From assembly GCA_000002445.1 (NCBI GenBank), contig CP000071.1, forward strand, positions 2,368,001-2,432,000: DNA of 64,000 nt, in the 5' to 3' direction. The notes beneath the pieces are model-generated. The model had not been told where the DNA came from and did no database searches. It worked only from the letters and a program-made list of their open reading frames with translations. The number at the start of each line of letters is the position of its first letter. Position 1 is the stretch's first letter. The position numbers and the translations under genes were made by a program. Positions 13,108-42,114 of this stretch are shown in pieces. This stretch comes from Trypanosoma brucei. Lineage: Eukaryota.

Positions 13108-13197
13108 GGGTTCTCTCTCTCTTTCTTTCTTTTTCTCTGTCTGCCTTTCTTTGTTTCTCTGTTTCTCTTTCTTTCTCTCTCTCTTTCTTTCTCTCTT

Positions 13198-13229
<32 letters not shown>

Positions 13230-18798: not shown

Positions 18799-20152
18799 TC
18801 TGTCTTTTTACCGTTCGGTTGATGGGAATCGAAGATTTGGGGTTTTAGGCGCGCTTTTTAAGTGGAGTGTAGGTGTGAAGCGCAAAGCAGGTAAGCGAAG
18901 GCGGAGACTGTTTAAGTAAAGCATGCTGGGCTTCTGAGGAAATGGGAGGGGATTATAAAATGTGGGGACTTAATGAATGGGAAGAGGGAGAGAAGCGATA
19001 TCTCTCCGAGCGTCGCATCTTGCAGAAGGATCCGTTTAGAGGTGTGTCCAATTGTTTGTTGTGGCGGTTCAGGTCTTTTGAAGGTTTGCGTTTCTGTCAT
19101 TTATGCTGCAGGATTTTTTTTTTTGTGGTGTGGATGAGGAGGGAAGTAAGTTTATTATTTTTTAGAAAAAGGAAAAACAACCTCCTCACCTGCGTTTTCA
19201 TCTACTTTTAGCTCTTTTTTGCACCCGACTTACCTCAACACCAGACATGCAAACAAACTTTGAAGACCTCGCGAGAGGCGAATTTTTCCTTTCCACGTGC
19301 CAATTCCCTCCGGATGGGGAACACAAAACGTTAGACTTTTTTTTGGTATGTTCAGTGCTGCTATAATAAATGTGACTTTTCCAGCTACCAGTTGGTCTTA
19401 GAGGACATCATCTCTTTTCGTTCTCTCTTTTTTTTCAGTCCTTATTTGAACCATTTCTCTCACTTTCATCTTAGGGTATCCGAGTTTAGAAACATCTTAG
19501 GGTGCTCGGCGTTTGTTTAGGCAATTTCTCACTCCCTCTTTCCCTCCTTCTCACTGCTTTCACTTTCACCTTCATTATTGTTATTATTCCCCCCCTCTAC
19601 AGTTTGCGAGCGATGCTAATTACCTGGTCAAATCTTTCCTCCTTGGAAGCTGTTGCATTCACATGTGCCACCACTATCGTTACTCTTTTTAGTGCATTTG
19701 CGCATTCACAGCTGTTGTGATACGCAAATGTTTGTGTGTGGGTTGCAGGCGTGAGTTTTGTTGGTTTCTGCACATGTTTCTCAGCGATGTTTATGAGGTT
19801 AACCTCGTCTCCTCCTCCTCCTCTGCGATTTCAGTTGTTTTCGTTAGAATGTAATGGTTAGAAGCCAAAGAACAATATCAATGCGAAACTTTTGAATCAA
19901 GGGCGAAGCAGAAAGAGAGAGAGAGTCGTGAAGAAAAGCTCTTCTTCTGAGTTTCTAAAGTTCTATTTCTAAGTCTGTCCTAACTGGGCGGGCGACGCTT
20001 GCTTTTGCTCAACATCAGCTAGCATGTGCGGTGGCAACATCTCCCATGTGGGTTTGCACCCCAAATCACTTCATTAGGGTAAACCTCAACGTTAGCTCCA
20101 CTACACCACGGAACTTTTGGAGAATAACGGGACGTTTTGTGCCGACAAAATT

Positions 20153-20341
20153 AAATGCTCCTTTCATAGTGTGCGTGACGGACCCGATATGTTCCCTGTT
20201 ACTGATAGTTCCGTAATGGTATATGATATTGAGGAGGATAGCTACAGTGAACTAAAGGAACGCTTTGCTAATGAAAGGGATGTGTTTTCACGTTTTCTCT
20301 ACGATCCAGGCGATGGTGTGAAAACTTTCGACTGCTCGTAG
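20153..20341 (+). pseudogene. relic 3' end (last ~62 codons) of a GT31 glycosyltransferase gene, with no 5' part
   Basis: Near-identical to the 3' end of the full GT gene at 28060-28248 (…KCSFHSVRDGPDMFPVTDSSVMV…KTFDCS*). The sequence upstream of 20153 is unrelated and there is no in-frame ATG. Confidence 0.5.
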
Positions 20342-20754
20342 GCATTTTACCTATGTGCTGCGTACTCGCATTTTACGTTTAGTAAATGGTTATCGAACTA
20401 TTTTGGAATATGTTTGTTTTTATTTCAGTCTGTGTGTAGTACACTGTTGCCTTAGCTTTTTTCGTAGTGTCTCCTCTATTGCCTCTGTCACCATTAGTTT
20501 ACCGCAGATAATGAATTGTACCATTACTAATTTTGTGTTGCGTTTTGATGAAAACTAAAACTTTGAAGGTTTGCATGTCTTGACATTGCATGGTTTTGTG
20601 TGTTGGGTGAAACATCCTTTACGGTTTTTGTACCATAATGCGGACCCCCTAACGTAATTGTGTGTTTTTTCCTTGTCTTTACCTACCCACAGTTCTTGTC
20701 ACAGTATGCTTCAATTTGCTATTGCATGTGTTCTGGCCAGCGGCTCAAACTATG

Positions 20755-20790
20755 ACTTTTTCTTCTCTTTCCCCATTTGTCACATTACCT
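20755..20790 (+). promoter_or_regulatory. polypyrimidine tract upstream of Cys-rich gene 1 (identical copy at 28662-28697 upstream of Cys-rich gene 2)
   Basis: ctttttcttctctttccccatttgtcacattacct. The first downstream AG is at ~20848, suggesting the real start codon is 20868 or 20886. Confidence 0.4.
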
Positions 20791-20795
20791 GATAC

Positions 20796-22448
20796 ATGTG
20801 TGTGTATTGTGCATTTGATAATGAATGGTTATTACTGTTTCATTTTTATAGCAGTTTTACCAAGGAGATGCGGACCAGAACAACAATGACGAGCGGTGCG
20901 CCTGCACGGCGCATGACTTCTCAGGGTCATGTAACTGCTTGCGTATCCAATAATAATGACTCTATGGCTGCAAAGCTGAGGAGGTGCCCCAGCTGTCAGT
21001 GCTACGGTTGTAGCGCCTTCACTGACCGATTGATTTTTTGTGTGGGAGAATGCAGGAATTGTGGCGAGGAAGTTGATCTTCATGATCTTGCAGCTCATGA
21101 GGCGCAGTGCATGGGACTAGGAGCGGTTGAGGGCACTCTTATCATCTGTGCGAAATGTTGTCGGGGGCTGAAACCAGGCAACATCCCCACCACTTCCGAA
21201 ACCAATCACGACAAGGAACAAAAAGAGAAAAACGTTCTATCTTTTTCCAAGGGGAAATGCTGCAAGGGACCGTATACACATCAAACCCATGCTGTATGCA
21301 GAGGGGAATGCAGAAAGAAGAATGACGGGAGCAACGTATCTTCCGTTCGCTGTGGGGGTTCCTGCAATGGTCATCGCAAAGACGGGCCCTGTGCTGTTTG
21401 TTGCGACACGCTTCCACACCTTACCCAACGTGAGGAAGGCCATGTCCACTGCAAGGGTCATGTGTTTGAGTGTACCACATGCGGACAGGTGTTTATGACT
21501 GCTGTCAAGTACGCCATGCATCTTTGTTGCGGTCGCACAGATCCTGAGCCAAAGTCTTCTACCTGTGGGCTATCGGAAGATACTGTAAAGGATCGTGGAG
21601 GTTGTTCTTACCCCACATGGGAGACTTCGTGTCTCAGTGTTTCGCCATTAAAAGGTCCTGCCCCTCATACGCCAGTTGCCACGAGGCCGCAATCCGCAAC
21701 TACCACCTCGTTGCCATCATATGCTGAATGCCCATCGCCGTCCCCAAGTTTACTGCGAGCGGCGGCTGTCAAGCCTCCCAGCCGTTCCTTTGAGAAATCA
21801 TCTGGTGCGAGCAGTGGTGTTCTTGGAGGTAACCAAGCAAAGAAGTCCAAATCCCGACTCCGTGGCGATTCCTCCACTGAGGCAAGGGATGATTTGGGCA
21901 GGCGTCAACCGAATAAAGGAATACATGCGGCGGAGGGAACAGCCAGTTCCAACTTCAGGGTGTCTGGGCGTGCAGAAAGTGTACCGCGAAACCGAGTGTC
22001 AGAAGAAGGTGGTTGTAGCACAGGCCTAGTTGGACGCAATAATGTTTGGAGGCCACTACCTCTATTTGCGGGAGACGGTGGGAGGAGAATGGGACCGTCG
22101 CGAATGTCGTCGGCTGCTGGGAGTTTAAGGAGCTCTGTGATGGATTCTCGTGAGCGTGACGGAGAGCATGGAACAACAATTTGGAGAACCAGGGAGGCAC
22201 AACCGGATAGCTTCATTCCAATTGTTGAGAAGACTTCACCCTCTCACCATCAGAGTCACTCTGCCACAGTTGTCGACTGTATGGGTTCCTCCGTGAGCGT
22301 TACTACGATTAACAGCCGCGTAGCTGCACCACTTATACTCGTCAGCCCTTGCCGCAAGAGGGAAGCAGTGAGTGATACAGTGTCAATTGAAGTAATCACG
22401 AGGGACACGGTTGGTGTCGACGCCGCTGTGATGAAACGCATTTGCTAA
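20796..22448 (+). CDS. Cys-rich zinc-finger protein, paralogue 1 (TRAF-like/C2HC-type Cys scaffold, C2HC finger, long S/R/G-rich disordered tail)
   Basis: 550-aa ORF. Polypyrimidine tract at 20755-20790. The likely real start is MRTRTT at 20868 or MTSGAP at 20886. Cys spacing CPxC…GC…CxxC…CG…DLxxHxxxC and HVHCKGHVFECTTCGQVFMTAVKYAMHLCC. Paralogous to 28703-30502. Confidence 0.55.
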   Translation: MCVYCAFDNEWLLLFHFYSSFTKEMRTRTTMTSGAPARRMTSQGHVTACVSNNNDSMAAKLRRCPSCQCYGCSAFTDRLIFCVGECRNCGEEVDLHDLAAHEAQCMGLGAVEGTLIICAKCCRGLKPGNIPTTSETNHDKEQKEKNVLSFSKGKCCKGPYTHQTHAVCRGECRKKNDGSNVSSVRCGGSCNGHRKDGPCAVCCDTLPHLTQREEGHVHCKGHVFECTTCGQVFMTAVKYAMHLCCGRTDPEPKSSTCGLSEDTVKDRGGCSYPTWETSCLSVSPLKGPAPHTPVATRPQSATTTSLPSYAECPSPSPSLLRAAAVKPPSRSFEKSSGASSGVLGGNQAKKSKSRLRGDSSTEARDDLGRRQPNKGIHAAEGTASSNFRVSGRAESVPRNRVSEEGGCSTGLVGRNNVWRPLPLFAGDGGRRMGPSRMSSAAGSLRSSVMDSRERDGEHGTTIWRTREAQPDSFIPIVEKTSPSHHQSHSATVVDCMGSSVSVTTINSRVAAPLILVSPCRKREAVSDTVSIEVITRDTVGVDAAVMKRIC

Positions 22449-23595
22449 AGTGCTCATTTAAGTGAAGGAGCGTTGAAGGTCCGTTAGTTAGAACACGTAC
22501 CAACATGACGTTTACTCTCTTAATTTGTTTTATTCCATTTTTCACTAAGGCACCTTTACTGCACGTGCTGCAGCAGGTATTTACTCGCTCGTGAAGTGCT
22601 GAGCCAACACTCTCAAACCAACGGTGGACCTCGCGGCGATGCGACTGTGCTTAGTTTCTATTTGCGAGAGTGACACGTGTATATGTTTGTGTTGTCTCGC
22701 ATATTTACATCATATACTTTCCTATTCATGTGAATGGGTGTATCCCTTACTTGTTTTTCCAGGGTTTTACTGTGCACGGTGTGGTGGCGGACGTTGGGGT
22801 TGGAGTGTCTAAAAGGCTAATTAAGAAAGTGTTTTTATTTTTATTTTGGGAATTACATATTTAAAGGGACTGACAATGCAGCCGGGATTAAAAGAGGAGA
22901 CTTTATTATTAGCAGTGTATGATGTTAGATACTTTCTTTCCACCGCCCGTGAGTACCACTGATTCAACATGGTTTCTAATCTCGCTATTGGTGCGTCGGG
23001 CAATATTTCTCTCTTTTTGAGATGGGCACTTTAATTCCTAATCATTAGACCCCGTTTCACGTAAGTGGGCCTTCAGATACTTCCAGCTTCTTTCTTTTTT
23101 TTTTTGCCCATCTCTTAATGTACGCTATGAATTACAGTGGTGCTGTGGGGAAAGGTGCGTGATGAAGGCGTCTCCCACTTTTTTTTTTTAATTATCCAGT
23201 TTTGCTAAAGTGGGCGTGTGCTACCATTTCCATATGAGAGGTGCAGTCATACCTCCAATCCTGAGCTCTCATTGCTGGTTCGTAAGTATCCGTAGCATAT
23301 AAACGTTTTTTATTTTTCTCTATTTTTCTGCTTTGAGGAGAGTCACACTTCTCGTTGGTTCTTTACATGTGGTGTTGTCTGCGAAATACTAATTACTGCA
23401 GGAATGTGTCCTCCGTACACTGGCCGACTCATCAAAATGGCGCATTAGGCTTGGATTTCTCGTTTAATTTTTATACTTTCTCTTCCATCCTCGTTTGTAG
23501 GTACATGATATATTATCCACTCGAAGACTCACCAGGAAAATGGAGGGGGGGGGTGAGGGATTTAGTCACGGTGCTGAAGTGGCATTTGTGCTACA

Positions 23596-24285
23596 GTGTT
23601 ACTCTTATCTTTATGTACAGTAGCCATTTACCTTACGCCCCGTCAAAATAATGGAATGAAACATCGTGAGAAGGCAGTTATGCAGGTACCGAGTGTGCGG
23701 AGTCACGTAGTTAACGTTCCCTCCAAATATCCCTTGTGGATACGAGAGGCTCTCGCTTACGTCCCTTCCACAGTTTTGCGTCAGTGGGAGGATGCCGAAT
23801 ATTTGGTGGTGTTTGGTGTGCCTTCTGTGGACATAAATGTGAGACGGCGACGGAGGCATTTGCAGCGGATGACTTGTTGGGCGTATGGTGGCGTTGCGCG
23901 GCGTGCAAATGACTTCGTGGGAAGTATGCTGCCATTATATATCCTTGCACGTCACCCCGACAATAACTACGTCTTCACGTCTGCTGCCTTAGAGGAGGCT
24001 GAGAAGTGGAATGATGTAATTACACTTCCAATGAATGAGGGTCGTGTGCCGACCAAAAAGCAAGTGGGCCAGGATGGAAAATGGGGTGTTGAAGCAGAGG
24101 TTGGTATGAGTCGCAAGACATTCATGTGGTTTGATTTGTCGCTGATTGTTTTCTCACGCGCCGCGTATATTGCGAAAGGCGATGATGACATGTTTTTGCG
24201 TGTTCCACAGTACCTTGTTGACTTACGCGATCTACCACGACGAGGGGTATATTGGGGTACGATTGATATGGATGGTGCTGTGTGA
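23596..24285 (+). pseudogene. GT31 glycosyltransferase copy truncated at both ends (GT-a). It retains the RxTW and DDD motifs but lacks an ATG-initiated N-terminus and the C-terminal EDxxxG half
   Basis: The ORF begins at GTG just after an in-frame TGA at 23575. Homology to the full copies starts at 23583 (inside the signal-anchor codons). The reading frame runs from WGTID at 24267 straight into the inter-GT spacer sequence and stops at 24285. Confidence 0.5.
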
Positions 24286-25560
24286 TTTTGTGGGTATGCT
24301 GAGCTGTCTGTTGGTTACGACTTGGCATGCAAAGAGTTTAACGATCTGTACAGTGTTTATTGTAGCGAGCACACAGAGCTGAGGTGTGTAATCAAGAACT
24401 GTATCAAGTTAACAAACAATTTAAATTCTTTTATATGCCTTCTTTCCTTTTTCCACTCTTCCACCTGCCGTAATAGCATTTGTTATATTTGTCATTTTGT
24501 CTGATTATAATTACACTTGATATGTTGTTGCCCTTCCTGTATTCTTGTCGGAGGTAAGTCTATGTCCCTGTCGGAGCCCCGGAAGCGTGAATTTAGGCAA
24601 AGAAGTATCGCGAGGCGCAGCATTTGTGCTACAGTGTTACTCTTATCTTTATGTACAGTAGCCATTTACCTTACGCCCCGTCGAGATAATGGAATGAAAC
24701 ATCGTGAGAAGGCAGTTATGCAGGTACCGAGTGTGCGGAGTCACGTAGTTAACGTTCCCTCCAAATATCCCTTGTGGATACGAGAGGCTCTCGCTTACGT
24801 CCCTTCCACAGTTTTGCGTCAGTGGGAGGATGCCGAATATTTGGTGGTGTTTGGTGTGCCTTCTGTGGACATAAATGTGAGACGGCGACGGAGGCATTTG
24901 CAGCGGATGACTTGTTGGGCGTATGGTGGCGTTGCGCGGCGTGCAAATGACTTCGTGGGAAGTATGCTGCCATTATATATCCTTGCACGTCACCCCGACA
25001 ATAACTACGTCTTCACGTCTGCTGCCTTAGAGGAGGCTGAGAAGTGGAATGATGTAATTACACTTCCAATGAATGAGGGTCGTGTGTCGACCAAAAAGCA
25101 AGTGGGCCAGGATGGAAAATGGGGTGTTGAAGCAGAGGTTGGTATGAGTCGCAAGACATTCATGTGGTTTGATTTGTCGCTGATTGTTTTCTCACGCGCC
25201 GCGTATATTGCGAAAGGCGATGATGACATGTTTTTGCGTGTTCCACAGTACCTTGTTGACTTACGCGATCTACCACGACGAGGGGTATATTGGGGTACGA
25301 TTGATAGATATACCGTTGGCAGAACAAGGTTTAACTACGCTTTTGGTTGGTGCTACACCCTTGCTCGTGATGTTGCTAAGCAGTTTGTTTCTTATGGACC
25401 ACTGCGCAAAGTAGTGAACAGTTCCTCGTCAGTGCTCAGTATGTTTACGATTAAGCGTTTCTATCTTCTGGCTGAGGACGCGATGGTTGGACTAACATTG
25501 CAGAGGGCCGGGTACGCTAGCAAAATACTTTACATTCGGGAAAAGAAATGCTCCTTTCAT
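24268..25560 (+). repeat. ~1.29 kb direct repeat: inter-GT spacer/5' leader (249 bp) plus the first ~333 codons of the GT gene. It is ~100% identical to 26782-28074, and its GT part is also present at 23583-24267
   Basis: Offset 2514 bp between copies b and c (identical minus-strand shadow ORFs 24649/27163, 24749/27263, 25005/27519). Offset 1038 bp between copies a and b. Confidence 0.8.
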
Positions 25561-25734
25561 AACGTGCACGCCGGGCCAACTGTTGTTGCTGTCACCGATA
25601 GTTCCGTAATGGTGCACCATGTTAGGGAGGATGAATACGAGAAACTAAAGCAACGTTTTGCTAATGAGAGGGATGTGGCTCCACGTTTTATTTACAGTAT
25701 TTATGAGGGTATGAAGGGTTTTAGTTGCCGGTAG
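24562..25734 (+). CDS. UDP-Gal/UDP-GlcNAc-dependent glycosyltransferase (GT31, beta-1,3-transferase-like), type II membrane protein, copy GT-b with a divergent C-terminal ~58 aa
   Basis: Motifs RRRRHLQRMTCW (RxTW), YIAKGDDDMFL (DxD) and LAEDAMVGL (EDxxxG). Short basic cytoplasmic tail plus TM (ATVLLLSLCTVAIYL). The track ORF starts at TTG 24517; the first ATG is 24562. It is 100% identical to GT-c up to 25560, then ~75% identical. Confidence 0.75.
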   Translation: MSLSEPRKREFRQRSIARRSICATVLLLSLCTVAIYLTPRRDNGMKHREKAVMQVPSVRSHVVNVPSKYPLWIREALAYVPSTVLRQWEDAEYLVVFGVPSVDINVRRRRRHLQRMTCWAYGGVARRANDFVGSMLPLYILARHPDNNYVFTSAALEEAEKWNDVITLPMNEGRVSTKKQVGQDGKWGVEAEVGMSRKTFMWFDLSLIVFSRAAYIAKGDDDMFLRVPQYLVDLRDLPRRGVYWGTIDRYTVGRTRFNYAFGWCYTLARDVAKQFVSYGPLRKVVNSSSSVLSMFTIKRFYLLAEDAMVGLTLQRAGYASKILYIREKKCSFHNVHAGPTVVAVTDSSVMVHHVREDEYEKLKQRFANERDVAPRFIYSIYEGMKGFSCR

Positions 25735-26646
25735 CTGGAGAATTTGCTCGTGGCTGCATAGAGGCACTTCTTTACTGTGGTTGATTTTTTTTTTTTTCGT
25801 TCCTTGGAGTTGCTAAGGTGTGTATGTATTCTATGCTCGTGCGTTATGATGCATTAATTGAATTTTTGTTGTCTATGTCCGTCGTCTTGTTGATTGACAG
25901 TTGACTTGATTTCTCCTCTTGTGCTATTTGGTCACTCGTGCTGTGGTGCGGTGTCTTTTCACGAGGGGGGGGGGCTGACGAGCACGGGGGTATTTCTTTA
26001 ATGATTCTAATTGATTTGCCTCGCGATGGTGAAGGTGCACGAAACATCTTGTAATTTAACGCGTGCTGTGGTGGACAGGCATTGGTGCGTCGCATTTCGT
26101 GGATTAAATATACACGGACACAACCAGCCCTTTCATCGGTTATCTGGCTGTGAATTGTACTACCACCATTATTGTAACGCGGTTGTTTGTACTGTTAATT
26201 ATGTGTGTACAGTAAATCGCTCTCTACTTGAGATACTAATGTGGAAAATTGATGTTGCGTCCCATTGTTTCACTTTTGGACTCATCATGGAGAATTTGTG
26301 TGCTCACTCTTCCTGCCACTAAGTTCATTTCGCATTTCTTTGTGTTTGAGAATGATGTAAGAGTTAGTAGACATGTTATGTTCCCCCATTTGTGACATGG
26401 GGTAAACCGCAGCCACACCGCAAAACAATTACTGCAAATCCCCCTTTAATACATCTTTTCTCCGGAATTGTGTGCCCGTTCATTAGCGTTTCTCTCCGTA
26501 GCGGGCGATGAACTGCATGTTAAACTCAACGCAATCGAACATGCAGCCAGTTGCATTGTGCGGACCGCGACTGTATACGGTGATCCTGCAGGAAAAGAAA
26601 GCGCGAGAACAAATTGGAGTTAAAGGTACTGACCTCAAAGCTCACT

Positions 26647-26781
26647 TCGTGAGCGTCACTACGATTAACAACCGCGTAGCTGCACCACTTATACTCGTCA
26701 GCCCTTGCCGCAAGAGGGAAGCAGTGAGTGATACAGTGTCAATTGAAGTAATCACGAGGGGTATATTGGGGTACGATTGAT
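26647..26781 (+). other. chimeric recombination footprint: the last ~38 codons of the Cys-rich gene (…VSVTTINNRVAAPLILVSPCRKREAVSDTVSIEVITRG) fused via an 'acgaggg' microhomology to a GT-internal segment (gtatattggggtacgattgat), then the inter-GT spacer
   Basis: 26647-26760 matches 22294-22407 (Cys-rich paralogue 1 3' end). 26761-26781 matches the GT internal sequence at 24247-24267 and 25285-25305. 26782-27030 matches the spacer at 24268-24516. Confidence 0.5.
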
Positions 26782-28074
26782 ATGGATGGTGCTGTGTGAT
26801 TTTGTGGGTATGCTGAGCTGTCTGTTGGTTACGACTTGGCATGCAAAGAGTTTAACGATCTGTACAGTGTTTATTGTAGCGAGCACACAGAGCTGAGGTG
26901 TGTAATCAAGAACTGTATCAAGTTAACAAACAATTTAAATTCTTTTATATGCCTTCTTTCCTTTTTCCACTCTTCCACCTGCCGTAATAGCATTTGTTAT
27001 ATTTGTCATTTTGTCTGATTATAATTACACTTGATATGTTGTTGCCCTTCCTGTATTCTTGTCGGAGGTAAGTCTATGTCCCTGTCGGAGCCCCGGAAGC
27101 GTGAATTTAGGCAAAGAAGTATCGCGAGGCGCAGCATTTGTGCTACAGTGTTACTCTTATCTTTATGTACAGTAGCCATTTACCTTACGCCCCGTCGAGA
27201 TAATGGAATGAAACATCGTGAGAAGGCAGTTATGCAGGTACCGAGTGTGCGGAGTCACGTAGTTAACGTTCCCTCCAAATATCCCTTGTGGATACGAGAG
27301 GCTCTCGCTTACGTCCCTTCCACAGTTTTGCGTCAGTGGGAGGATGCCGAATATTTGGTGGTGTTTGGTGTGCCTTCTGTGGACATAAATGTGAGACGGC
27401 GACGGAGGCATTTGCAGCGGATGACTTGTTGGGCGTATGGTGGCGTTGCGCGGCGTGCAAATGACTTCGTGGGAAGTATGCTGCCATTATATATCCTTGC
27501 ACGTCACCCCGACAATAACTACGTCTTCACGTCTGCTGCTTTAGAGGAGGCTGAGAAGTGGAATGATGTAATTACACTTCCAATGAATGAGGGTCGTGTG
27601 TCGACCAAAAAGCAAGTGGGCCAGGATGGAAAATGGGGTGTTGAAGCAGAGGTTGGTATGAGTCGCAAGACATTCATGTGGTTTGATTTGTCGCTGATTG
27701 TTTTCTCACGCGCCGCGTATATTGCGAAAGGCGATGATGACATGTTTTTGCGTGTTCCACAGTACCTTGTTGACTTACGCGATCTACCACGACGAGGGGT
27801 ATATTGGGGTACGATTGATAGATATACCGTTGGCAGAACAAGGTTTAACTACGCTTTTGGTTGGTGCTACACCCTTGCTCGTGATGTTGCTAAGCAGTTT
27901 GTTTCTTATGGACCACTGCGCAAAGTAGTGAACAGTTCCTCGTCAGTGCTCAGTATGTTTACGATTAAGCGTTTCTATCTTCTGGCTGAGGACGCGATGG
28001 TTGGACTAACATTGCAGAGGGCCGGGTACGCTAGCAAAATACTTTACATTCGGGAAAAGAAATGCTCCTTTCAT
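26782..28074 (+). repeat. second copy of the 1.29 kb spacer+GT-5' repeat
   Basis: See 24268-25560. Confidence 0.8.
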
Positions 28075-28248
28075 AGTGTGCGTGACGGACCTGATATGTT
28101 CCCTGTTACTGATAGTTCCGTAATGGTACATGATATTGAGGAGGATAGCTACAGTGAACTAAAGGAACGCTTTGCTAATGAAAGGGATGTGTTTTCACGT
28201 TTTCTCTACGATCCAGGCGATGGTGTGAAAACTTTCGACTGCTCGTAG
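27076..28248 (+). CDS. UDP-Gal/UDP-GlcNAc-dependent glycosyltransferase (GT31), copy GT-c, full length
   Basis: Same motifs and architecture as GT-b. The track ORF starts at TTG 27031; the first ATG is 27076. Its 3' end is identical to the relic at 20153-20341. Confidence 0.75.
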   Translation: MSLSEPRKREFRQRSIARRSICATVLLLSLCTVAIYLTPRRDNGMKHREKAVMQVPSVRSHVVNVPSKYPLWIREALAYVPSTVLRQWEDAEYLVVFGVPSVDINVRRRRRHLQRMTCWAYGGVARRANDFVGSMLPLYILARHPDNNYVFTSAALEEAEKWNDVITLPMNEGRVSTKKQVGQDGKWGVEAEVGMSRKTFMWFDLSLIVFSRAAYIAKGDDDMFLRVPQYLVDLRDLPRRGVYWGTIDRYTVGRTRFNYAFGWCYTLARDVAKQFVSYGPLRKVVNSSSSVLSMFTIKRFYLLAEDAMVGLTLQRAGYASKILYIREKKCSFHSVRDGPDMFPVTDSSVMVHDIEEDSYSELKERFANERDVFSRFLYDPGDGVKTFDCS

Positions 28249-30639
28249 GCATTTTACCTATGTGCTGCGTACTCGCATTTTACGTTTAGTAAATGGTTAT
28301 CGAACTATTTTGGAATATGTTTGTTTTTCTTTCAGTCTGTGTGTAGTACACTGTTGCCTTAGCTTTTTTCGTAGTGTCTCCTCTATTGCCTCTGTCACCA
28401 TTAGTTTACCGCAGATAATGAATTGTACCATTACTAATTTTGTGTTGCGTTTTGATGAAAACTAAAACTTTGAAGGTTTGCATGTCTTGACATTGCATGG
28501 TTTTGTGTGTTGGGTGAAACATCCTTTACGGTTTTTGTACCATAATGCGGACCCCCTAACGTAATTGTGTGTTTTTTCCTTGTCTTTACCTACCCACAGT
28601 TCTTGTCACAGTATGCTTCAATTTGCTATTGCATGTGTTCTGGCCAGCGGCTCAAACTATGACTTTTTCTTCTCTTTCCCCATTTGTCACATTACCTGAT
28701 ACATGTGTGTGTATTGTGCATTTGATAATGAATGGTTATTACTGTTTCATTTTTATAGCAGTTTTACCAAGGAGATGCGGACCAGAACAACAATGACGAG
28801 CGGTGCGCCCCGTGTGTATTGTGGAGCGTTCGTGCGTAACAGGAAGCAACGGAAGATTTTATGCTCGCTAAATAGAAAGCTAAAGCTGTGCCCGTATTGT
28901 GGACGTCTCGGTTGCAGCCGTCACGTTAGACGGTGTGGGGGACAATTAGTGAATTGTTCCGTATGTGGCTCAAATGTGGTGATTCGTGATCTTGATGACC
29001 ATTTTTTTCGTTGTGGGGAGCAGTGCTCCCCTAGAGTTACTGTTGGTGGTGAAGAGGGGTGTTGCGAAGAGCGGAAGGTGTGTGAAACATATGATGCATA
29101 CTATAGTGAATGTAGCAATGGAGGTTGCAGTGGGGACTGCGCTCACCCCGCATGGAATGAAGTGCCCCAGGGGAGACAGGATAAAGGCGATGTCTGTGTT
29201 GTCTGTGACCTGTTGCTAGTGCATCCTGGGGGTGAGGAAGGCCATGTCCACTGCAAGGGTCATGTGTTTGAGTGTACCACATGCGGACAGGTGTTTATGA
29301 CTGCTGTCGAGTACGCCATGCATCTTTGTTGCGGTCGCACAGATCCTGAGCCAAAGTCTTCTACCTGTGGGCTATCGGAAGATACTGTAAAGGATCGTGG
29401 AGGTTGTTCTTACCCCACATGGGAGACTTCGTGTCTCAGTGTTTCGCCATTAAAAGGTCCTGCCCCTCATACGCCAGTTGCCACGAGGTCGCAATCTCCT
29501 TCGTCGATGCTTGTGTCGCCCGAGATCTCGTTTTCGTGCCCCAGATTTATGCAATTGACAACTGTCAAGCCTCCCAGCCGTTCCTTTGAGAAATCATCTG
29601 GTGCGAGCAGTGGTGTTCTTGGAGGTAACCAAGCAAAGAAGTCCAAATCCCGACTCCGTGGCGATTCCTCCACTGAGGCAAGGGATGATTTGGGCAGGCG
29701 TCAACCGAATAAAGGAATACATGCGGCGGAGGGAACAGCCAGTTCCAACTTCAGGGTGTCTGGGCGTGCAGAAAGTGTACCGCGAAACCGAGTGTCAGAA
29801 GAAGGTGGTTGTAGCACAGGCCTAGTTGGACGCAATAATGTTTGGAGGCCACTACCTCTATTTGCGGGAGACGGTGGGAGGAGAATGGGACCGTCGCGAA
29901 TGTCGTCGGCTGCTGGGAGTTTAAGGAGCTCTGTGATGGATTCTCGTGAGCGTGACGGAGAGCATGGAACAACAATTTGGAGAACCAGGGAGGCACAACC
30001 GGATAGCTTCATTCCAATTGTTGAGAAGACTTCACCCTCTCACCATCAGAGTCACTCTGCCACAGTTGTCGACTGTATGGGTTCCTCCGTGAGCGTTACT
30101 ACGATTAACAACCGTGAAGCTGCACCGCTGAGCACTGTTAACCCACAGTGCAGGAAGAATGCAAGTCGGTGCCAACCTCGTGACGTAGCTAGCATGCTTT
30201 CCGGAACGCGCTGCACAGTTTGCAATGTGGCCTCGCGTTTTGGCGATGGTTCGGGTGCGGGGTTGCGGCGTGCGGCATCTTTTAGTGGGTGTGGAAGGCC
30301 TCGAATGAGATCCGCTAGGAGGTGCGGGTCCCCTTCAGGGGATGTCGGGTGTTGTGTTCCGACGTCAGATGACACATATAGGCAGAAATCGCTGGAAATG
30401 GTTTTGGGGCAACGTGCCCGTGAAGTGCTGAGCCAACACTCTCAAACCAACGGTGGACCTCGCGGCGATGCGACTGTGCTTAGTTTCTATTTGCGAGAGT
30501 GACACGTGTATATGTTTGTGTTGTCTCGCATATTTACATCATATACTTTCCTATTCATGTGAATGGGTGTATCCCTTACTTGTTTTTCCAGGGTTTTACT
30601 GTGCACGGTGTGGTGGCGGACGTTGGGGTTGGAATGTCG
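28060..30639 (+). repeat. segmental duplication block A2 (partner of 20153-22810)
   Basis: See block A1. Confidence 0.8.
28703..30502 (+). CDS. Cys-rich zinc-finger protein, paralogue 2
   Basis: 599 aa. Upstream region and first ~36 codons are identical to paralogue 1. The N-terminal ~150 aa has a divergent sequence but conserved Cys spacing. The central ~330 aa is near-identical. The C-terminal tail diverges (extra Cys/Arg-rich segment). Confidence 0.55.
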   Translation: MCVYCAFDNEWLLLFHFYSSFTKEMRTRTTMTSGAPRVYCGAFVRNRKQRKILCSLNRKLKLCPYCGRLGCSRHVRRCGGQLVNCSVCGSNVVIRDLDDHFFRCGEQCSPRVTVGGEEGCCEERKVCETYDAYYSECSNGGCSGDCAHPAWNEVPQGRQDKGDVCVVCDLLLVHPGGEEGHVHCKGHVFECTTCGQVFMTAVEYAMHLCCGRTDPEPKSSTCGLSEDTVKDRGGCSYPTWETSCLSVSPLKGPAPHTPVATRSQSPSSMLVSPEISFSCPRFMQLTTVKPPSRSFEKSSGASSGVLGGNQAKKSKSRLRGDSSTEARDDLGRRQPNKGIHAAEGTASSNFRVSGRAESVPRNRVSEEGGCSTGLVGRNNVWRPLPLFAGDGGRRMGPSRMSSAAGSLRSSVMDSRERDGEHGTTIWRTREAQPDSFIPIVEKTSPSHHQSHSATVVDCMGSSVSVTTINNREAAPLSTVNPQCRKNASRCQPRDVASMLSGTRCTVCNVASRFGDGSGAGLRRAASFSGCGRPRMRSARRCGSPSGDVGCCVPTSDDTYRQKSLEMVLGQRAREVLSQHSQTNGGPRGDATVLSFYLRE

Positions 30640-31859
30640 AGAAGGATAATGAAAATCTCGTAGAGGCTAATGGAAGCTTTCGACCGGCGTTGTTGTGGTA
30701 TGCAATCGGTGACTGATGTTACCACGGTCGTGTCTCGTCTTTGTGGCATGTACAGTTTGGACGTGTTGGCGGTCTTTTTGACTTTGCCTTCTACATTATT
30801 CGCATTTTCCCCTTTCTTTTCTTTACTCGTTTTTCTCGTATACGATGTGTTGTTTACGTGATTACTGTATTTATGGTCTCACATGGTTGGCATAGTTGAA
30901 TATTCTTTGACTGGTTCTGTAGTTGTTAGTACTGTTTTACTTTTCGTTTACTTTAGATGAATGTGATTGCTGTTGTACCGAATTCGTTTTGGTGTAATAA
31001 TTTTCGTTGTTGCGGCTGCAGCGTCTGCCGTTCAGACGTGCGAGCATTGTAGAAATAATGTTAAGGGTTCCTCCTGTTTTCATGGCTTTCCTTTTTTTTT
31101 TTGTCCATAAGTTTACTACCTGAAGATCGCATCTCACTTTGAAGGCGCTTCAGCTGCAGTGTCGTTAGTTAGCTGCTTGATCTTGACCATTTGGGGGGCG
31201 TGTACAATCTTTTAAAATGCAGCAGCCCTTATTTCCTGGGACAGGGAGAGGTGGCTATGTTTTGAAAAAAAAAAACGTATGCCGTTGTTTGTCATCTGTG
31301 GAGCAAGCTGTACTCAAGATTATTTTCCTGCTTTCCCCCCTTTTTTCTAATTAATGTATAAATACAGCTAACCAAGTGTAGATATAACTTATTTGTGTGT
31401 GGAAGGCGTGTGTTTGGACGATGCGATTACCTCGGGGGATGTATGGATGAACAAAAAGATGCTACATGCAGTATCGTTTCCATTTCAGTGACTTCACTGT
31501 ATGCTGAAGGTGCCTACTGCCAGTTGTGGGCGTTTCAACCTGCGCGTGCGCGGAATGTTTCTGCGGCGATTAATTCCACCTTGAATTACATGCAGCCGCT
31601 TTCCACCTGTTTTCAAATTACGTATTGGCACACTGGCACCCAAATGGTGGCCAAAACTTACTTTTAGTCATATATTTCTATAGTCCTCCGCTTTGACTTG
31701 TTTCCCCCCTCTCTCGCTGAGCAACTAAAGAAACAGTGACAATAACATCAGCGTCATCGGCAGCTGTATTAGTCGTAAAGGTAGCGTCATTCGTAACGGT
31801 AGCGGCAGTGACCCAATAACAAAGAGGGAACAAAATCAAGCATACTAATACACACACCA

Positions 31860-32666
31860 ATGCTATTCATCAGAATATTAAACCCATTATTGTTGATGTT
31901 GCTTCTGCCTATTTTTTCGCACTTCGCCGCAACCACATCCGAAAAAGATGGCTACACGAAGCTCAGCGAAGAGGAGGAGCAGCAGCTGGACAACTGCCGC
32001 GCCTGCATGGCACTCACTGCTGTGTTCATGGAGGAGGTTATGAAACCAACGGAGAAATTGCAGCATCAACTCCACCAGCAGCAGCAGCAGGAGGGGAGCG
32101 CGCCCCGGACGCCGAAAAATAGCGACGCTGTGCGGTCGGGTGAGAGGCAGCGGCTCGTCACGAATGTACATGATGCCATTGACAAGCTCTGCGACCGTGT
32201 AAAGGAAAGAAATAACCAAGTAGACGCATCATATGACAAAGGGAAAGAGGAGCGTGATGAAAAGAGTGAAAGTACAGAAGGTGGGCCGATATGGTACGTA
32301 TCTGTCAACACAGCAGCGTGTGAGGTGGCATTGGAGGAGGTGAGCGAGGCACTTGCGCGGGAAGCCTTTGCACAGTTGCTGCCGGAGCGCGTTGCTGGAA
32401 CCCGCGGTGGTGGCCCATCCGCTGTTTGCGAGCAGGAAAATTTGTGCACCGCCCGGCTGTCACAACATGTGAAGTCTGAAGAGGAGAAGGCAAAAGCGGA
32501 ATTGGAGAAGGAGATGCGGCGGCAACGGGAGTTGAGTCGCAAGAACCCAAAGGAGACGTTGGCGTTGCAGCGTGCCGTTGCCGTGGGTGTCGGCATTATG
32601 GTCATTGCGCTGTGGTTGCGGGGGCGACAGTCTGCGAAGCCAGAAGGTGACGTGAAGAAGGACTGA
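31860..32666 (+). CDS. hypothetical type I membrane protein (signal peptide, charged/coiled ectodomain, single C-terminal TM)
   Basis: N-terminal hydrophobic MLFIRILNPLLLMLLLPIFSHFAA and C-terminal VAVGVGIMVIALWL followed by a basic tail. 268-aa ATG ORF. Confidence 0.45.
   Translation: MLFIRILNPLLLMLLLPIFSHFAATTSEKDGYTKLSEEEEQQLDNCRACMALTAVFMEEVMKPTEKLQHQLHQQQQQEGSAPRTPKNSDAVRSGERQRLVTNVHDAIDKLCDRVKERNNQVDASYDKGKEERDEKSESTEGGPIWYVSVNTAACEVALEEVSEALAREAFAQLLPERVAGTRGGGPSAVCEQENLCTARLSQHVKSEEEKAKAELEKEMRRQRELSRKNPKETLALQRAVAVGVGIMVIALWLRGRQSAKPEGDVKKD

Positions 32667-32856: not shown

Positions 32857-32886
<30 letters not shown>
32857..32886. repeat. (TG)15 microsatellite. A second (TG)12 at 33158-33182 lies ~300 bp downstream in the same intergenic region
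   Basis: Direct reading. Confidence 0.9.

Positions 32887-32890
<4 letters not shown>

Positions 32891-42065: not shown

Positions 42066-42114
<49 letters not shown>
42066..42114. repeat. (TA)n microsatellite, ~24 units
   Basis: Direct reading. Confidence 0.95.

What the first reader, a model, noticed from the sequence alone, without database searches (positions are those of the whole stretch)
26636..27030. Chimeric junction footprint: Cys-rich gene 3' end fused to a GT-internal segment at an 'acgaggg' microhomology
26647-26760 reproduces the last ~38 codons of Cys-rich gene 1 (22294-22407). Where the parent reads 'aatcacgagggacacgg', this copy reads 'aatcacgaggggtatattggggtacgattgat', which is the GT-internal sequence following 'ccacgacgaggg' at 24240-24267. 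That is followed by the 249-bp inter-GT spacer. The same GT-internal-to-spacer join terminates GT-a at 24267/24268. So two separate illegitimate joins are preserved: a microhomology-mediated deletion fusing the Cys-rich gene to GT, and truncation of GT at WGTID fused to the spacer. ORF 26508-26780 reads the chimera in frame (…VSVTTINNRVAAPLILVSPCRKREAVSDTVSIEVITRGILGYD).
Basis: seen in the sequence. Interest (0 to 1): 0.55.

Follow-up and report, generated by a model that had tools for sequence, protein, structure and literature searches.

The report
Repair scar in trypanosome glycosyltransferase array
This is a real but almost certainly non-functional DNA-repair scar, in which 113 bases of one gene and 22 bases of a neighbouring gene are pasted together at the boundary of a 2.5-kb repeated glycosyltransferase unit on Trypanosoma brucei chromosome 8; it is shared by several subspecies and is ordinary for an organism that joins broken DNA through short matching sequences.

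Summary
26648-26760 copies the 3' coding region of Cys-rich gene 1 (22292-22404). It switches at a 7-nt shared 'acgaggg' (26754-26760) into 22 nt of glycosyltransferase (GT) coding sequence (26761-26782), then into the spacer upstream of the next GT.

The window is T. b. brucei TREU927 chromosome 8 (the Tb927.8.71xx GT array). The junction (J) is not a mis-join. The same 40-mer occurs once in T. b. gambiense DAL972, twice in T. equiperdum IVM-t1, and in a collapsed 2.5-kb repeat contig of T. equiperdum OVI. J is the novel joint of a 2514-bp tandem GT unit.

There is a third breakpoint (f|Cys, about 26647/26648), so three joins lie within 138 nt. The GT-a truncation joined to the spacer (24268/24269) exists only in TREU927; elsewhere GT-a runs on to its normal 3' end.

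I favour one synthesis-dependent, microhomology-mediated event that filled the joint with two locally templated patches. Unequal recombination then spread it, and a secondary TREU927-specific recombination through the 29-nt patch truncated GT-a.

The 90-codon ORF shows no sign of being a gene. Interest is low: a new example of a known kind.

The parts
22292..22404 (+). Parent 1: the segment of Cys-rich gene 1 (CDS 20796-22448, AAZ13565.1, 'hypothetical protein, conserved / C2H2-type domain-containing') that is copied into J. It ends 14 codons before the stop codon.
   Evidence: Its 3' 74 nt are Cys1-specific: similarity to Cys2 stops at 22330/30126.
22398..22404 (+). 'acgaggg' microhomology copy in Cys1.
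23582..24268 (+). GT-a, a pseudogene fragment equal to GT CDS nt 59-745. It lacks the start codon and part of the membrane anchor, and in TREU927 it also lacks the C-terminal 142 codons.
   Evidence: 99.5% identical to 24620-25306 and 27134-27820. No protein is annotated between AAZ13565 and AAZ13566.
24240..24268 (+). 29-nt GT-internal block (the 7-nt microhomology plus 22 nt) directly abutting spacer copy 1. This GT-a|spacer join is specific to TREU927.
24269..24561 (+). Spacer copy 1, the upstream region and 5' UTR of GT-b.
   Evidence: 100% identical to 26783-27075.
24562..25734 (+). [quoted passage not shown]
25735..26647 (+). f, the GT-b 3' flank. It is unique in the window and contains a G11 run at about 25964-25975. 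Its last three bases (26645-26647, 'ctt') are the ambiguous left breakpoint of J.
   Evidence: Searches found no significant similarity elsewhere. Boundary.
26508..26780 (+). 90-codon ORF reading f sequence, then the Cys1 patch in the Cys1 frame, then the GT patch out of the GT frame, then a stop. It is probably not a gene.
   Evidence: It is not called as a gene in IVM-t1 or DAL972 and is not annotated in TREU927.
26648..26760 (+). J patch 1: a 113-nt copy of Cys1 22292-22404.
26754..26760 (+). The 7-nt microhomology 'acgaggg' at which Cys1-derived sequence switches to GT-derived sequence.
26761..26782 (+). J patch 2: 22 nt of GT CDS (nt 724-745).
   Evidence: four exact copies in the window.
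26783..27075 (+). Spacer copy 2, the upstream region and 5' UTR of GT-c. It holds a polypyrimidine tract at 26952-26968 followed by AG, a likely trans-splicing signal (inferred).
27076..28248 (+). GT-c CDS (390 aa, identical to AAZ13567.1). Its 5' 1000 nt are about 99.9% identical to GT-b, and its last 173 nt come from a different GT lineage.
24240..26753 (+). One complete 2514-bp tandem unit: 29-nt patch, spacer, GT, f, Cys patch. The second unit starts at 26754.
   Evidence: period 2514. IVM-t1 period is 2507 with two J copies. The OVI 2518-bp contig is a circular permutation of the unit.

Best explanation
J (about 26645-26782) is a fixed, non-coding rearrangement scar in the Tb927.8.71xx glycosyltransferase array of T. 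brucei chromosome 8. It is the novel joint between successive 2.5-kb GT units, each made of spacer, GT and 3' flank f.

**Shown**
- The joint holds 135-138 nt of filler made of two patches copied from sequences a few kb away. These are 113 nt from the 3' coding region of Cys1 and 22 nt from inside a GT gene, chained at a 7-nt GC-rich microhomology.
- The joint predates the common ancestor of the TREU927, DAL972 and T. equiperdum haplotypes.
- Its copy number varies (1, 1, 2, and an unknown number, probably at least 2, in OVI).
- The GT copies evolve in concert within each strain.

**Inferred (my preferred mechanism)**
- The three breakpoints arose in one synthesis-dependent, microhomology-mediated repair or replication-restart event. 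This would be MMEJ with template switching, of the MMBIR or Pol-theta type, in an organism that has no classical NHEJ.
- A broken or stalled 3' end at the end of f, or at the start of the spacer, copied a stretch of Cys1, switched at 'acgaggg' to a GT copy, copied 22 nt, and was then joined to the other side.
- Unequal homologous recombination between the roughly 1-kb identical GT bodies later changed the unit number.
- In the TREU927 lineage, J's 29-nt GT-derived block recombined with its source site inside GT-a. This could be a 1471-bp deletion in a three-GT array like that of IVM-t1, or a 1038-bp synthesis-dependent insertion into a two-GT array like that of DAL972. Either way it produced the truncated GT-a fused to the spacer.

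**Function**
None is expected. J most likely lies in the 3' UTR or intergenic stretch between GT-b and the trans-splicing signal of GT-c.
For: **Base-level anatomy.**

**Identity of the locus.** GT-b and GT-c are identical to TREU927 AAZ13566.1 and AAZ13567.1. The locus is named in Jackson 2007 (PMC2212663).

**J is real and old.**
- The exact 40-mer is present in DAL972 (one copy), IVM-t1 (two copies) and OVI.
- Those copies carry their own SNPs, so they come from independent reads.

**J is the unit joint.**
- The period is 2514 bp.
- The OVI 2518-bp contig is a circular permutation of the unit.
- IVM-t1 carries an extra unit.

**The GT-a|spacer join is in TREU927 only.**

**Concerted evolution.**
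- Strain-specific SNPs are shared by all GT copies of a strain.
- TREU927 units differ at 1 of 1322 nt, whereas strains differ by about 1.7%.

**Clustering of breakpoints.** Three independent breakpoints falling within 138 nt of a 2.5-4.4-kb unit has probability of about 0.003-0.009. That favours a single compound event.

**Mechanistic precedent.**
- In T. brucei, chromosomal end joining was exclusively MMEJ, with 5-20-bp microhomologies and a preference for GC-rich ones.
- One-sided MMEJ gene conversion and natural junction scars that spread to several loci have been described (Glover, Jun & Horn 2011, PMC3045614).
- Pol theta is present in T. brucei (PMC12578213).

**Not a gene.**
- No Pfam match for the ORF.
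- No gene call in three annotations.
- Three nonsynonymous changes to one synonymous change among copies.
- No Rfam match.
Against: - The order of events is not resolved. A history in which the GT-a|spacer join came first needs a similar number of steps, and every step in it is also known in T. brucei.
- Microhomology can be scored at only one of the three joins. The left join shows at most an imperfect 2-3 nt and the right join 1 nt. The native partners of f and of the spacer are unknown, because neither has a detectable relative in the window.
- No 'empty' f-spacer site was found in any assembly.
- A 113-nt templated patch is long for classical Pol-theta insertions.
- Recombination through only 29 nt is inefficient.
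- IVM-t1 has only about 2x PacBio coverage and was ordered against TREU927 (PMC6395869), so its unit count is soft.
- The location of J in a UTR is inferred from sequence motifs only.
Confidence: 0.5

Rival explanations
1. The GT-a(nt 745)|spacer join formed first, for example as the joint of a partial tandem duplication of spacer plus GT nt 1-745. Then the segment 22292-26647 (4356 bp, from the Cys1 3' end to the end of f) was duplicated in tandem, giving the f|Cys joint. A 1842-bp microhomology-mediated deletion between the two 'acgaggg' copies (22398 and 24240) then produced J and the 2514-bp unit. Equivalently, this was a one-sided MMEJ gene conversion whose synthesis ran from the spacer 29 nt into GT-a. 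DAL972 and T. equiperdum later lost 1038 bp by ordinary homologous recombination between the 687-nt GT-a and GT-b repeats.
For: - Every piece of J is contiguous with its neighbour in the TREU927 sequence, so only simple duplications and deletions are needed.
- The 687-nt repeats are 99.6% identical and 351 nt apart, an excellent substrate for deletion. The absence of the join elsewhere is therefore cheap to explain.
- One-sided MMEJ gene conversion is documented in T. brucei (PMC3045614). It would explain why the acgaggg join lies only 22 nt beyond the spacer.
Against: - It needs three independent illegitimate events whose breakpoints end up within 138 nt of each other (probability about 0.003-0.009 if independent).
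- The supposedly ancestral join is seen in only one of the three assemblies that span GT-a.
- No intermediate has been observed.
Confidence: 0.35
2. Assembly artefact: the junction is a mis-join of reads from a repetitive array.
For: - The region is a near-identical tandem array.
- OVI collapsed it into a single contig, and the IVM-t1 third GT carries a 1-nt indel.
- The GT-a|spacer join is supported by the TREU927 assembly alone.
Against: - J is identical in four independently sequenced genomes, each with private SNPs around it.
- A 29-nt overlap is too short to cause a mis-join with Sanger reads. GT-a also carries private variants (23645, 23647, 24049), the last only 219 nt from the join.
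- I put the artefact probability at about 0.02 for J and about 0.1 for the GT-a|spacer join alone.
Confidence: 0.03
3. A functional chimera. Either ORF 26508-26780 encodes a T. brucei-specific 90-residue protein that reuses 37 codons of Cys1, or the Cys1-derived patch acts as a regulatory element in the GT-b 3' UTR.
For: - The ORF is intact in all five J copies of four genomes, and the Cys1 part keeps its frame.
- A short pyrimidine run followed by AG lies just upstream of the ATG (26454-26500).
Against: - With only about 1-2% divergence, an intact 90-codon ORF is expected by default.
- The changes seen are three nonsynonymous to one synonymous.
- There is no family match and no gene call in any annotation.
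- The N-terminal 46 residues come from unique flank sequence, and the C-terminus is out-of-frame GT sequence.
Confidence: 0.03

Closest known systems
Microhomology-mediated end joining deletions and one-sided MMEJ gene conversion in T. brucei (Glover, Jun & Horn 2011, PMC3045614)
   Same: - One copy of a short GC-rich microhomology (7 nt, within the reported 5-20 bp) is kept at the join of two identifiable parents.
- The paper also reports natural junction scars that were retained and spread to several loci.
- The organism lacks classical NHEJ.
   Different: - The experimental deletions were small (mean 284 bp, maximum about 950 bp) and simple.
- Here the parents are 1.8-4.4 kb apart, and the joint holds two chained templated patches with three breakpoints.
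- Here the scar is in a chromosome-core housekeeping array, not in a reporter or a VSG expression site.
MMBIR / FoSTeS complex junctions, and Pol-theta 'templated insertions' at tandem-duplication joints (described in human, fly, worm and plant genomes; from my own knowledge, plus PMC12578213 for Pol theta in trypanosomatids)
   Same: - Clustered breakpoints.
- Filler copied from nearby sequences in direct orientation.
- Microhomology at a switch point.
- Association with a copy-number gain (a tandem unit).
   Different: - Microhomology could be verified at only one switch.
- A 113-nt patch is long for Pol theta.
- I know of no direct demonstration of template-switch repair in T. brucei, and the papers read here did not report templated insertions (the word 'templated' is absent).
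Concerted evolution and copy-number change of trypanosomatid tandem gene arrays, and the chromosome 4/8 duplicon (Jackson 2007, PMC2212663)
   Same: - GT copies are homogenised within each strain.
- Unit number varies between strains.
- The locus (Tb927.8.7140, paralog Tb927.4.5240) lies in the described duplicon. The GT-then-Cys-like gene order is shared with the chromosome-4-type region.
   Different: That literature deals with genes and rates of change, not with the junction sequence. The specific joint does not appear in the papers I searched.

Membership tests
MMEJ / microhomology-mediated junction scar | Both parental sequences are identifiable, and each continues differently beyond the join. 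| tested here: met
   Cys1 22292-22404 continues 'acacgg'. GT 24240-24268 is preceded by 'ccacg'..
MMEJ / microhomology-mediated junction scar | A short identity (5-20 bp in T. brucei) is present in both parents, and a single copy is retained at the join. | tested here: met
   The 7-nt 'acgaggg' is at 22398-22404 and 24240-24246, with one copy at 26754-26760. Chance probability is about 7e-5 per register.
MMEJ / microhomology-mediated junction scar | Formed independently of Ku/Lig4, and dependent on resection and Pol theta. | not testable with these tools
   This needs genetics. Only the literature precedent is available.
Template-switch (MMBIR / FoSTeS / TMEJ) compound junction | At least two breakpoints are clustered at one joint, with filler copied from nearby loci. 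| tested here: met
   Three breakpoints lie within 138 nt. The patches come from 4.4 kb and from 1.0-2.5 kb away, on the same strand.
Template-switch (MMBIR / FoSTeS / TMEJ) compound junction | Microhomology at every switch. | tested here: inconclusive
   There are 7 nt at the middle switch. The left join has an imperfect 'ct(t/c)' and the right join 1 nt ('a'). The native contexts of f and the spacer are unknown.
Template-switch (MMBIR / FoSTeS / TMEJ) compound junction | All breakpoints were created in one event, with no intermediates. | not testable with these tools
   Only four assemblies were reachable and none shows an intermediate. A population-scale read search is needed.
Tandem-duplication novel joint | The junction recurs once per unit, at the point where the unit's end meets its start. 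| tested here: met
   The period is 2514 bp in TREU927 and 2507 bp, with two J copies, in IVM-t1. The OVI contig is a circular permutation of the unit.
Expressed chimeric (fusion) gene | The reading frames of both parents are joined in frame. | tested here: not met
   The Cys1 frame is kept. The GT patch is read in a shifted frame and terminates after 6 codons.
Expressed chimeric (fusion) gene | Evidence of purifying selection, or annotation as a gene. | tested here: not met
   Three nonsynonymous changes to one synonymous. There is no gene call or protein accession and no Pfam hit.
Expressed chimeric (fusion) gene | Its own spliced-leader acceptor and poly(A) site, and ribosome occupancy. | not tested
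   No transcriptome or ribosome-profiling data can be reached with these tools.
GT67 glycosyltransferase (the flanking genes GT-b and GT-c) | Full-length similarity to trypanosome UDP-Gal/UDP-GlcNAc-dependent GTs, with a type II anchor and a DXD motif. | tested here: met
   97 homologues, all in Trypanosoma. Galactosyl_T scores just below the Pfam cut-off. A 'GDDD' motif and an N-terminal hydrophobic stretch are visible in the translation. Assignment to the GT67 family follows PMC8477195.

The most novel reading that the evidence does not exclude
The repair scar gave birth to a new gene. On this reading, the 90-codon ORF 26508-26780, intact in all five copies from four Trypanozoon genomes, is trans-spliced at the AG just upstream. 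It would be translated into a T. brucei-specific micro-protein that reuses 37 residues of the Cys-rich protein. Alternatively, the Cys1-derived patch gives GT-b mRNA a regulatory element shared with Cys1.
Probability: 0.04. Interest if true: 0.5.

Novelty: new member of a known kind. Interest (0 to 1): 0.22.

Why it matters
- It is a clean natural example of how T. brucei, which lacks classical end joining, builds and remodels core-genome gene arrays. A microhomology-mediated, probably template-switching joint created the unit boundary, and homologous recombination then amplified and homogenised it.
- The joint is a ready-made marker. Three diagnostic 40-mers (J, GT-a|spacer and the hypothetical empty f|spacer site) can be counted in any read set. 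That would type array haplotypes, copy number and the order of events across Trypanozoon strains.
- It has practical value for annotation. GT-a is a pseudogene fragment in TREU927. The first GT copy lacks its membrane anchor in every assembly that spans it (TREU927, DAL972, IVM-t1). The 90-codon ORF should not be called a gene.
- It does not bear on any open question.

Tried and rejected
1. **Origin of f (25735-26647) and of the spacer (24269-24561).** I used sensitive BLASTN with word size 7. I also ran Smith-Waterman with shuffles against the Cys1 upstream region, the Cys1 downstream region, the region downstream of the 739-aa gene and the region downstream of Cys2. I then ran TBLASTN with all neighbouring proteins and the chromosome-4-type proteins. 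Nothing was significant, so the native partners of two of the three breakpoints stay unknown.
2. **Deciding the order of events from SNPs.** This failed because the copies are homogenised within each strain.
3. **Exact-protein look-ups.** Look-ups of the chimera ORF, GT-b, GT-c and P0100 found nothing on record. Two of these calls were wasted by starting one codon too early.
4. **More strains.** The protein clusters hold only TREU927, DAL972, IVM-t1 and OVI. No tool here searches eukaryotic genomes by DNA.
5. **Hairpins or palindromes at the breakpoints.** None was found.
6. **Known RNA families in 22400-28300.** None was found.
7. **Pfam on the ORF.** No match.
8. **Was GT-a's 5' edge (23581/23582) only a gene-conversion boundary over diverged homologous sequence?** There is no significant residual similarity, so I treat it as a breakpoint.
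9. **Do the Cys1/Cys2 divergence points near 22331 form part of the breakpoint cluster?** I rejected this. The two genes remain recognisably homologous there at the protein level (APLILVSPCRK versus APLSTVNPQCRK), so this is a mosaic of older paralogue sequence and conversion tracts.
10. **The 2026 pangenome preprint.** It says nothing about this array.
Full report
**1. What is in the sequence**

I read the three regions directly and ran a self-BLASTN of 19000-32000.
- 22289-22404 matches 26645-26760 (116 nt, 97.4%, E = 2.6e-52).
- 24240-25689 matches 26754-28203, with the first 300 nt identical.
- The two alignments overlap by exactly seven bases, 'acgaggg' (26754-26760).
- After this heptamer, Cys1 continues 'acacgg', whereas J continues 'gtatattggggtacgattgata'. 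That is the GT sequence following the same heptamer in GT-a, GT-b and GT-c. This 22-mer has four exact copies in the window and none expected.
- The 22-mer is followed in J (26782/26783) and in GT-a (24268/24269) by the same spacer, while in GT-b and GT-c the coding sequence continues 'gatatacc'.

- The Cys1 coordinates are 3 nt off.
- The copied codons are not the last ones, because Cys1 stops at 22448.
- Base 26647 differs from Cys1 in all strains, so the copy is really 26648-26760 (113 nt). It is 100% identical to the strain's own Cys1 in two strains.
- The GT-derived 22 nt are read out of the GT frame by ORF 26508-26780.

**2. Where we are**

- GT-b and GT-c are residue-for-residue AAZ13566.1 and AAZ13567.1 of T. 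b. brucei TREU927, on the 2.48-Mb chromosome 8 record.
- The flanking Cys-rich genes are AAZ13565.1 and AAZ13568.1, 'hypothetical protein, conserved / C2H2-type domain-containing'. They have homologues only in the T. brucei group.
- The accession numbers are consecutive. So neither GT-a nor the chimeric ORF is an annotated protein.
- The locus is the Tb927.8.7140 GT locus of the chromosome 4/8 duplicon (PMC2212663).
- These enzymes belong to CAZy family GT67 (PMC8477195).
- In the chromosome-4-type paralogous region (L003) the order is GT, then a Cys-like gene. The basic unit is therefore GT-Cys.

**3. Map of the array**

| Coordinates | Feature |
|---|---|
| 20153-20341 | GT 3' remnant |
| 20796-22448 | Cys1 |
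| 22449-23581 | Unique intergenic sequence |
| 23582-24268 | GT-a (GT CDS nt 59-745) |
| 24269-24561 | Spacer copy 1 |
| 24562-25734 | GT-b |
| 25735-26647 | f, the unique 3' flank of GT-b |
| about 26645-26782 | J |
| 26783-27075 | Spacer copy 2 |
| 27076-28248 | GT-c |
| 28703-30502 | Cys2 |

- The tandem period is 2514 bp (24240 to 26754).
- The two units differ at 1 of 1322 positions up to 25561/28075. They are then only about 68% identical over the last 173 nt of the CDS. GT-c therefore carries the 3' end of another GT lineage.
- That same 3' end is the remnant lying upstream of Cys1, which is 99.6% identical to it.

**4. Is it an assembly artefact?**

For J, no. I fetched the orthologous loci:
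- T. equiperdum IVM-t1 (L001);
- T. b. gambiense DAL972 chromosome 8 (L002);
- a 2518-bp contig of T. equiperdum OVI (L004).

The 40-mer across J is exact in all of them: once in DAL972, twice in IVM-t1 (2507 bp apart) and once in OVI.
- The OVI contig starts at the equivalent of window 25968 and ends at 25971. It is a circular permutation of the unit, broken at the G11 run. That is the signature of a collapsed tandem repeat.
- The copies carry their own SNPs, so they come from independent reads.
- Caveat: IVM-t1 was assembled from MiSeq reads plus only about 7,500 PacBio reads, and was ordered against TREU927 (PMC6395869). Its unit count is therefore soft.

**5. The new fact: the GT-a|spacer join is TREU927-specific**

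- The corresponding 41-mer is absent from L001, L002 and L004.
- In DAL972 and IVM-t1 the first GT copy runs on to a normal, GT-b-type 3' end (gene calls of 346 and 338 aa).
- TREU927 equals DAL972 plus one 1038-bp block (23582-24619, or equivalently 24269-25306).
- IVM-t1 equals DAL972 plus one further 2507-bp unit.
- In all three assemblies that span it, the first copy lacks the first 58 nt of the CDS, which hold the start codon and part of the anchor.

**6. A third breakpoint, and clustering**

Left of the Cys1 patch lies f. It has no detectable relative in the window at the DNA or protein level. J is therefore f | 113 nt of Cys1 | 22 nt of GT | spacer, with three breakpoints inside 138 nt. 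If three breakpoints were placed independently in a unit of 2.5-4.4 kb, they would fall that close with probability 0.003-0.009.

**7. Mechanism**

T. brucei has no classical NHEJ.
- In the chromosomal assay of Glover, Jun & Horn, all end joining was MMEJ. Microhomologies were 5-20 bp, and GC-rich ones were favoured.
- The same study saw one-sided MMEJ gene conversion, with homologous recombination at one end and microhomology at the other.
- It also found natural junction scars that were retained and spread among loci (PMC3045614).
- Pol theta is present in T. brucei (PMC12578213).
- A 7-nt heptamer with five G/C bases fits this pattern exactly.

Because of the clustering, I favour a single synthesis-dependent event with template switching, which filled the joint of the duplicating GT unit with two locally copied patches. 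Unequal recombination between the roughly 1-kb identical GT bodies then explains the 1, 1 and 2 J copies. Under this view, the TREU927 truncation of GT-a is secondary. J's 29-nt GT block and its source inside GT-a are direct repeats. Either of two events through them yields exactly the TREU927 arrangement:
- a 1471-bp deletion in a three-GT array like that of IVM-t1;
- a 1038-bp synthesis-dependent insertion into a two-GT array like that of DAL972.

**8.

If the GT-a|spacer join came first, J follows from two steps: a tandem duplication of 22292-26647 (4356 bp), then a 1842-bp deletion between the two heptamers. A one-sided MMEJ conversion would give the same result. The other strains would then have lost 1038 bp by recombination between the 687-nt, 99.6%-identical repeats, which is an easy event.

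Both histories need a similar number of steps. SNPs cannot decide between them, because every strain has homogenised its copies: strain-specific variants are shared by all GT copies of that strain.

**9. Function**

Nothing points to one.
- The 90-codon ORF is intact in all five copies. At 1-2% divergence that is expected by default.
- Its differences are three nonsynonymous to one synonymous.
- It has no family match and no gene call anywhere.
- Rfam finds nothing in 22400-28300.
- There are no hairpins at the breakpoints.

The strongest polypyrimidine tract before GT-c is 26952-26968, followed by an AG. By the usual coupling of trans-splicing with upstream polyadenylation (established knowledge), J most likely sits in the long 3' UTR of GT-b or in the discarded intergenic RNA. 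This is inference only.

**10. Verdict**

This is a new, well-preserved example of a known kind of event in a long-published genome. It is useful as a haplotype marker and as an annotation note, and it is of low general interest.

Noticed in passing
window 20153-20341 (with 20342-20902): A 189-nt GT 3'-end remnant lies upstream of Cys1 with no GT body in front of it. Together with the intergenic region and the first 107 nt of Cys1, it is 99.6% identical to 28060-28809 (the GT-c 3' end through the Cys2 start). This marks a second segmental duplication boundary inside a GT gene.
   Followed up: partly
window 25562-25734 versus 28076-28248: There is a sharp mosaic boundary in the GT genes. GT-b and GT-c differ at 1 of 1322 nt upstream of it, and at about 56 of 173 nt in the last 58 codons. 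The two enzymes therefore share everything except their C-termini. The second GT of DAL972 is intermediate, with 11 and 18 amino-acid differences to GT-b and GT-c.
   Followed up: partly
window 20796-22821 versus 28703-30650: Cys1 and Cys2 are mosaics. Their first 107 nt are near-identical, the N-terminal Cys-rich parts are unalignable at the DNA level (20903-21429 versus 28810-29231), and the middle is 95.6% identical. After 22330/30126 the C-terminal blocks diverge. Cys1 stops early (22448), and the last 28 codons of Cys2 correspond to Cys1 3'-UTR sequence 22587-22670. Only Cys2 gives a weak TRAFD1/XAF1 zinc-finger hit.
   Followed up: partly
window 25960-25975 and 23543-23552: Long G runs lie near array landmarks. 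'cacgaggg' followed by G11 sits inside f, and this is where the OVI Illumina contig breaks. A G8 run sits 30 nt upstream of the GT-a 5' breakpoint. The first is another 'acgaggg' copy: there are 12 in the window against 5.1 expected, of which 5 lie in repeated GT, J and Cys1 sequence. A possible role for G-rich tracts in fork stalling was not tested.
   Followed up: no
GT copies in window, L001, L002 and L004: There is concerted evolution. About eight SNPs separate strains but are shared by all GT copies within a strain. OVI groups with TREU927, and IVM-t1 groups with DAL972.
   Followed up: partly
L001 about 12840 (third GT of IVM-t1): A 1-nt indel relative to all other GT copies shifts the frame, and the gene is not called. 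It could be a real pseudogene or a polishing error in a low-coverage PacBio/MiSeq hybrid assembly.
   Followed up: no
L003 7730-9580 versus window: The chromosome-4-type paralogous region has a 616-aa gene between the 623-aa gene and GT. This gene has no counterpart in the chromosome-8 window. The chromosome-4-type Cys-like gene (330 aa) matches only the N-terminal roughly 78 residues of Cys1 and Cys2.
   Followed up: no
window 43955-44433; 42066-42114; 32857-32890; 13112-13212: An unrelated 234-bp tandem duplication (2 copies, 98% identical), together with (AT)24, (TG)17 and (TCTTTCTC)n microsatellites.
   Followed up: no
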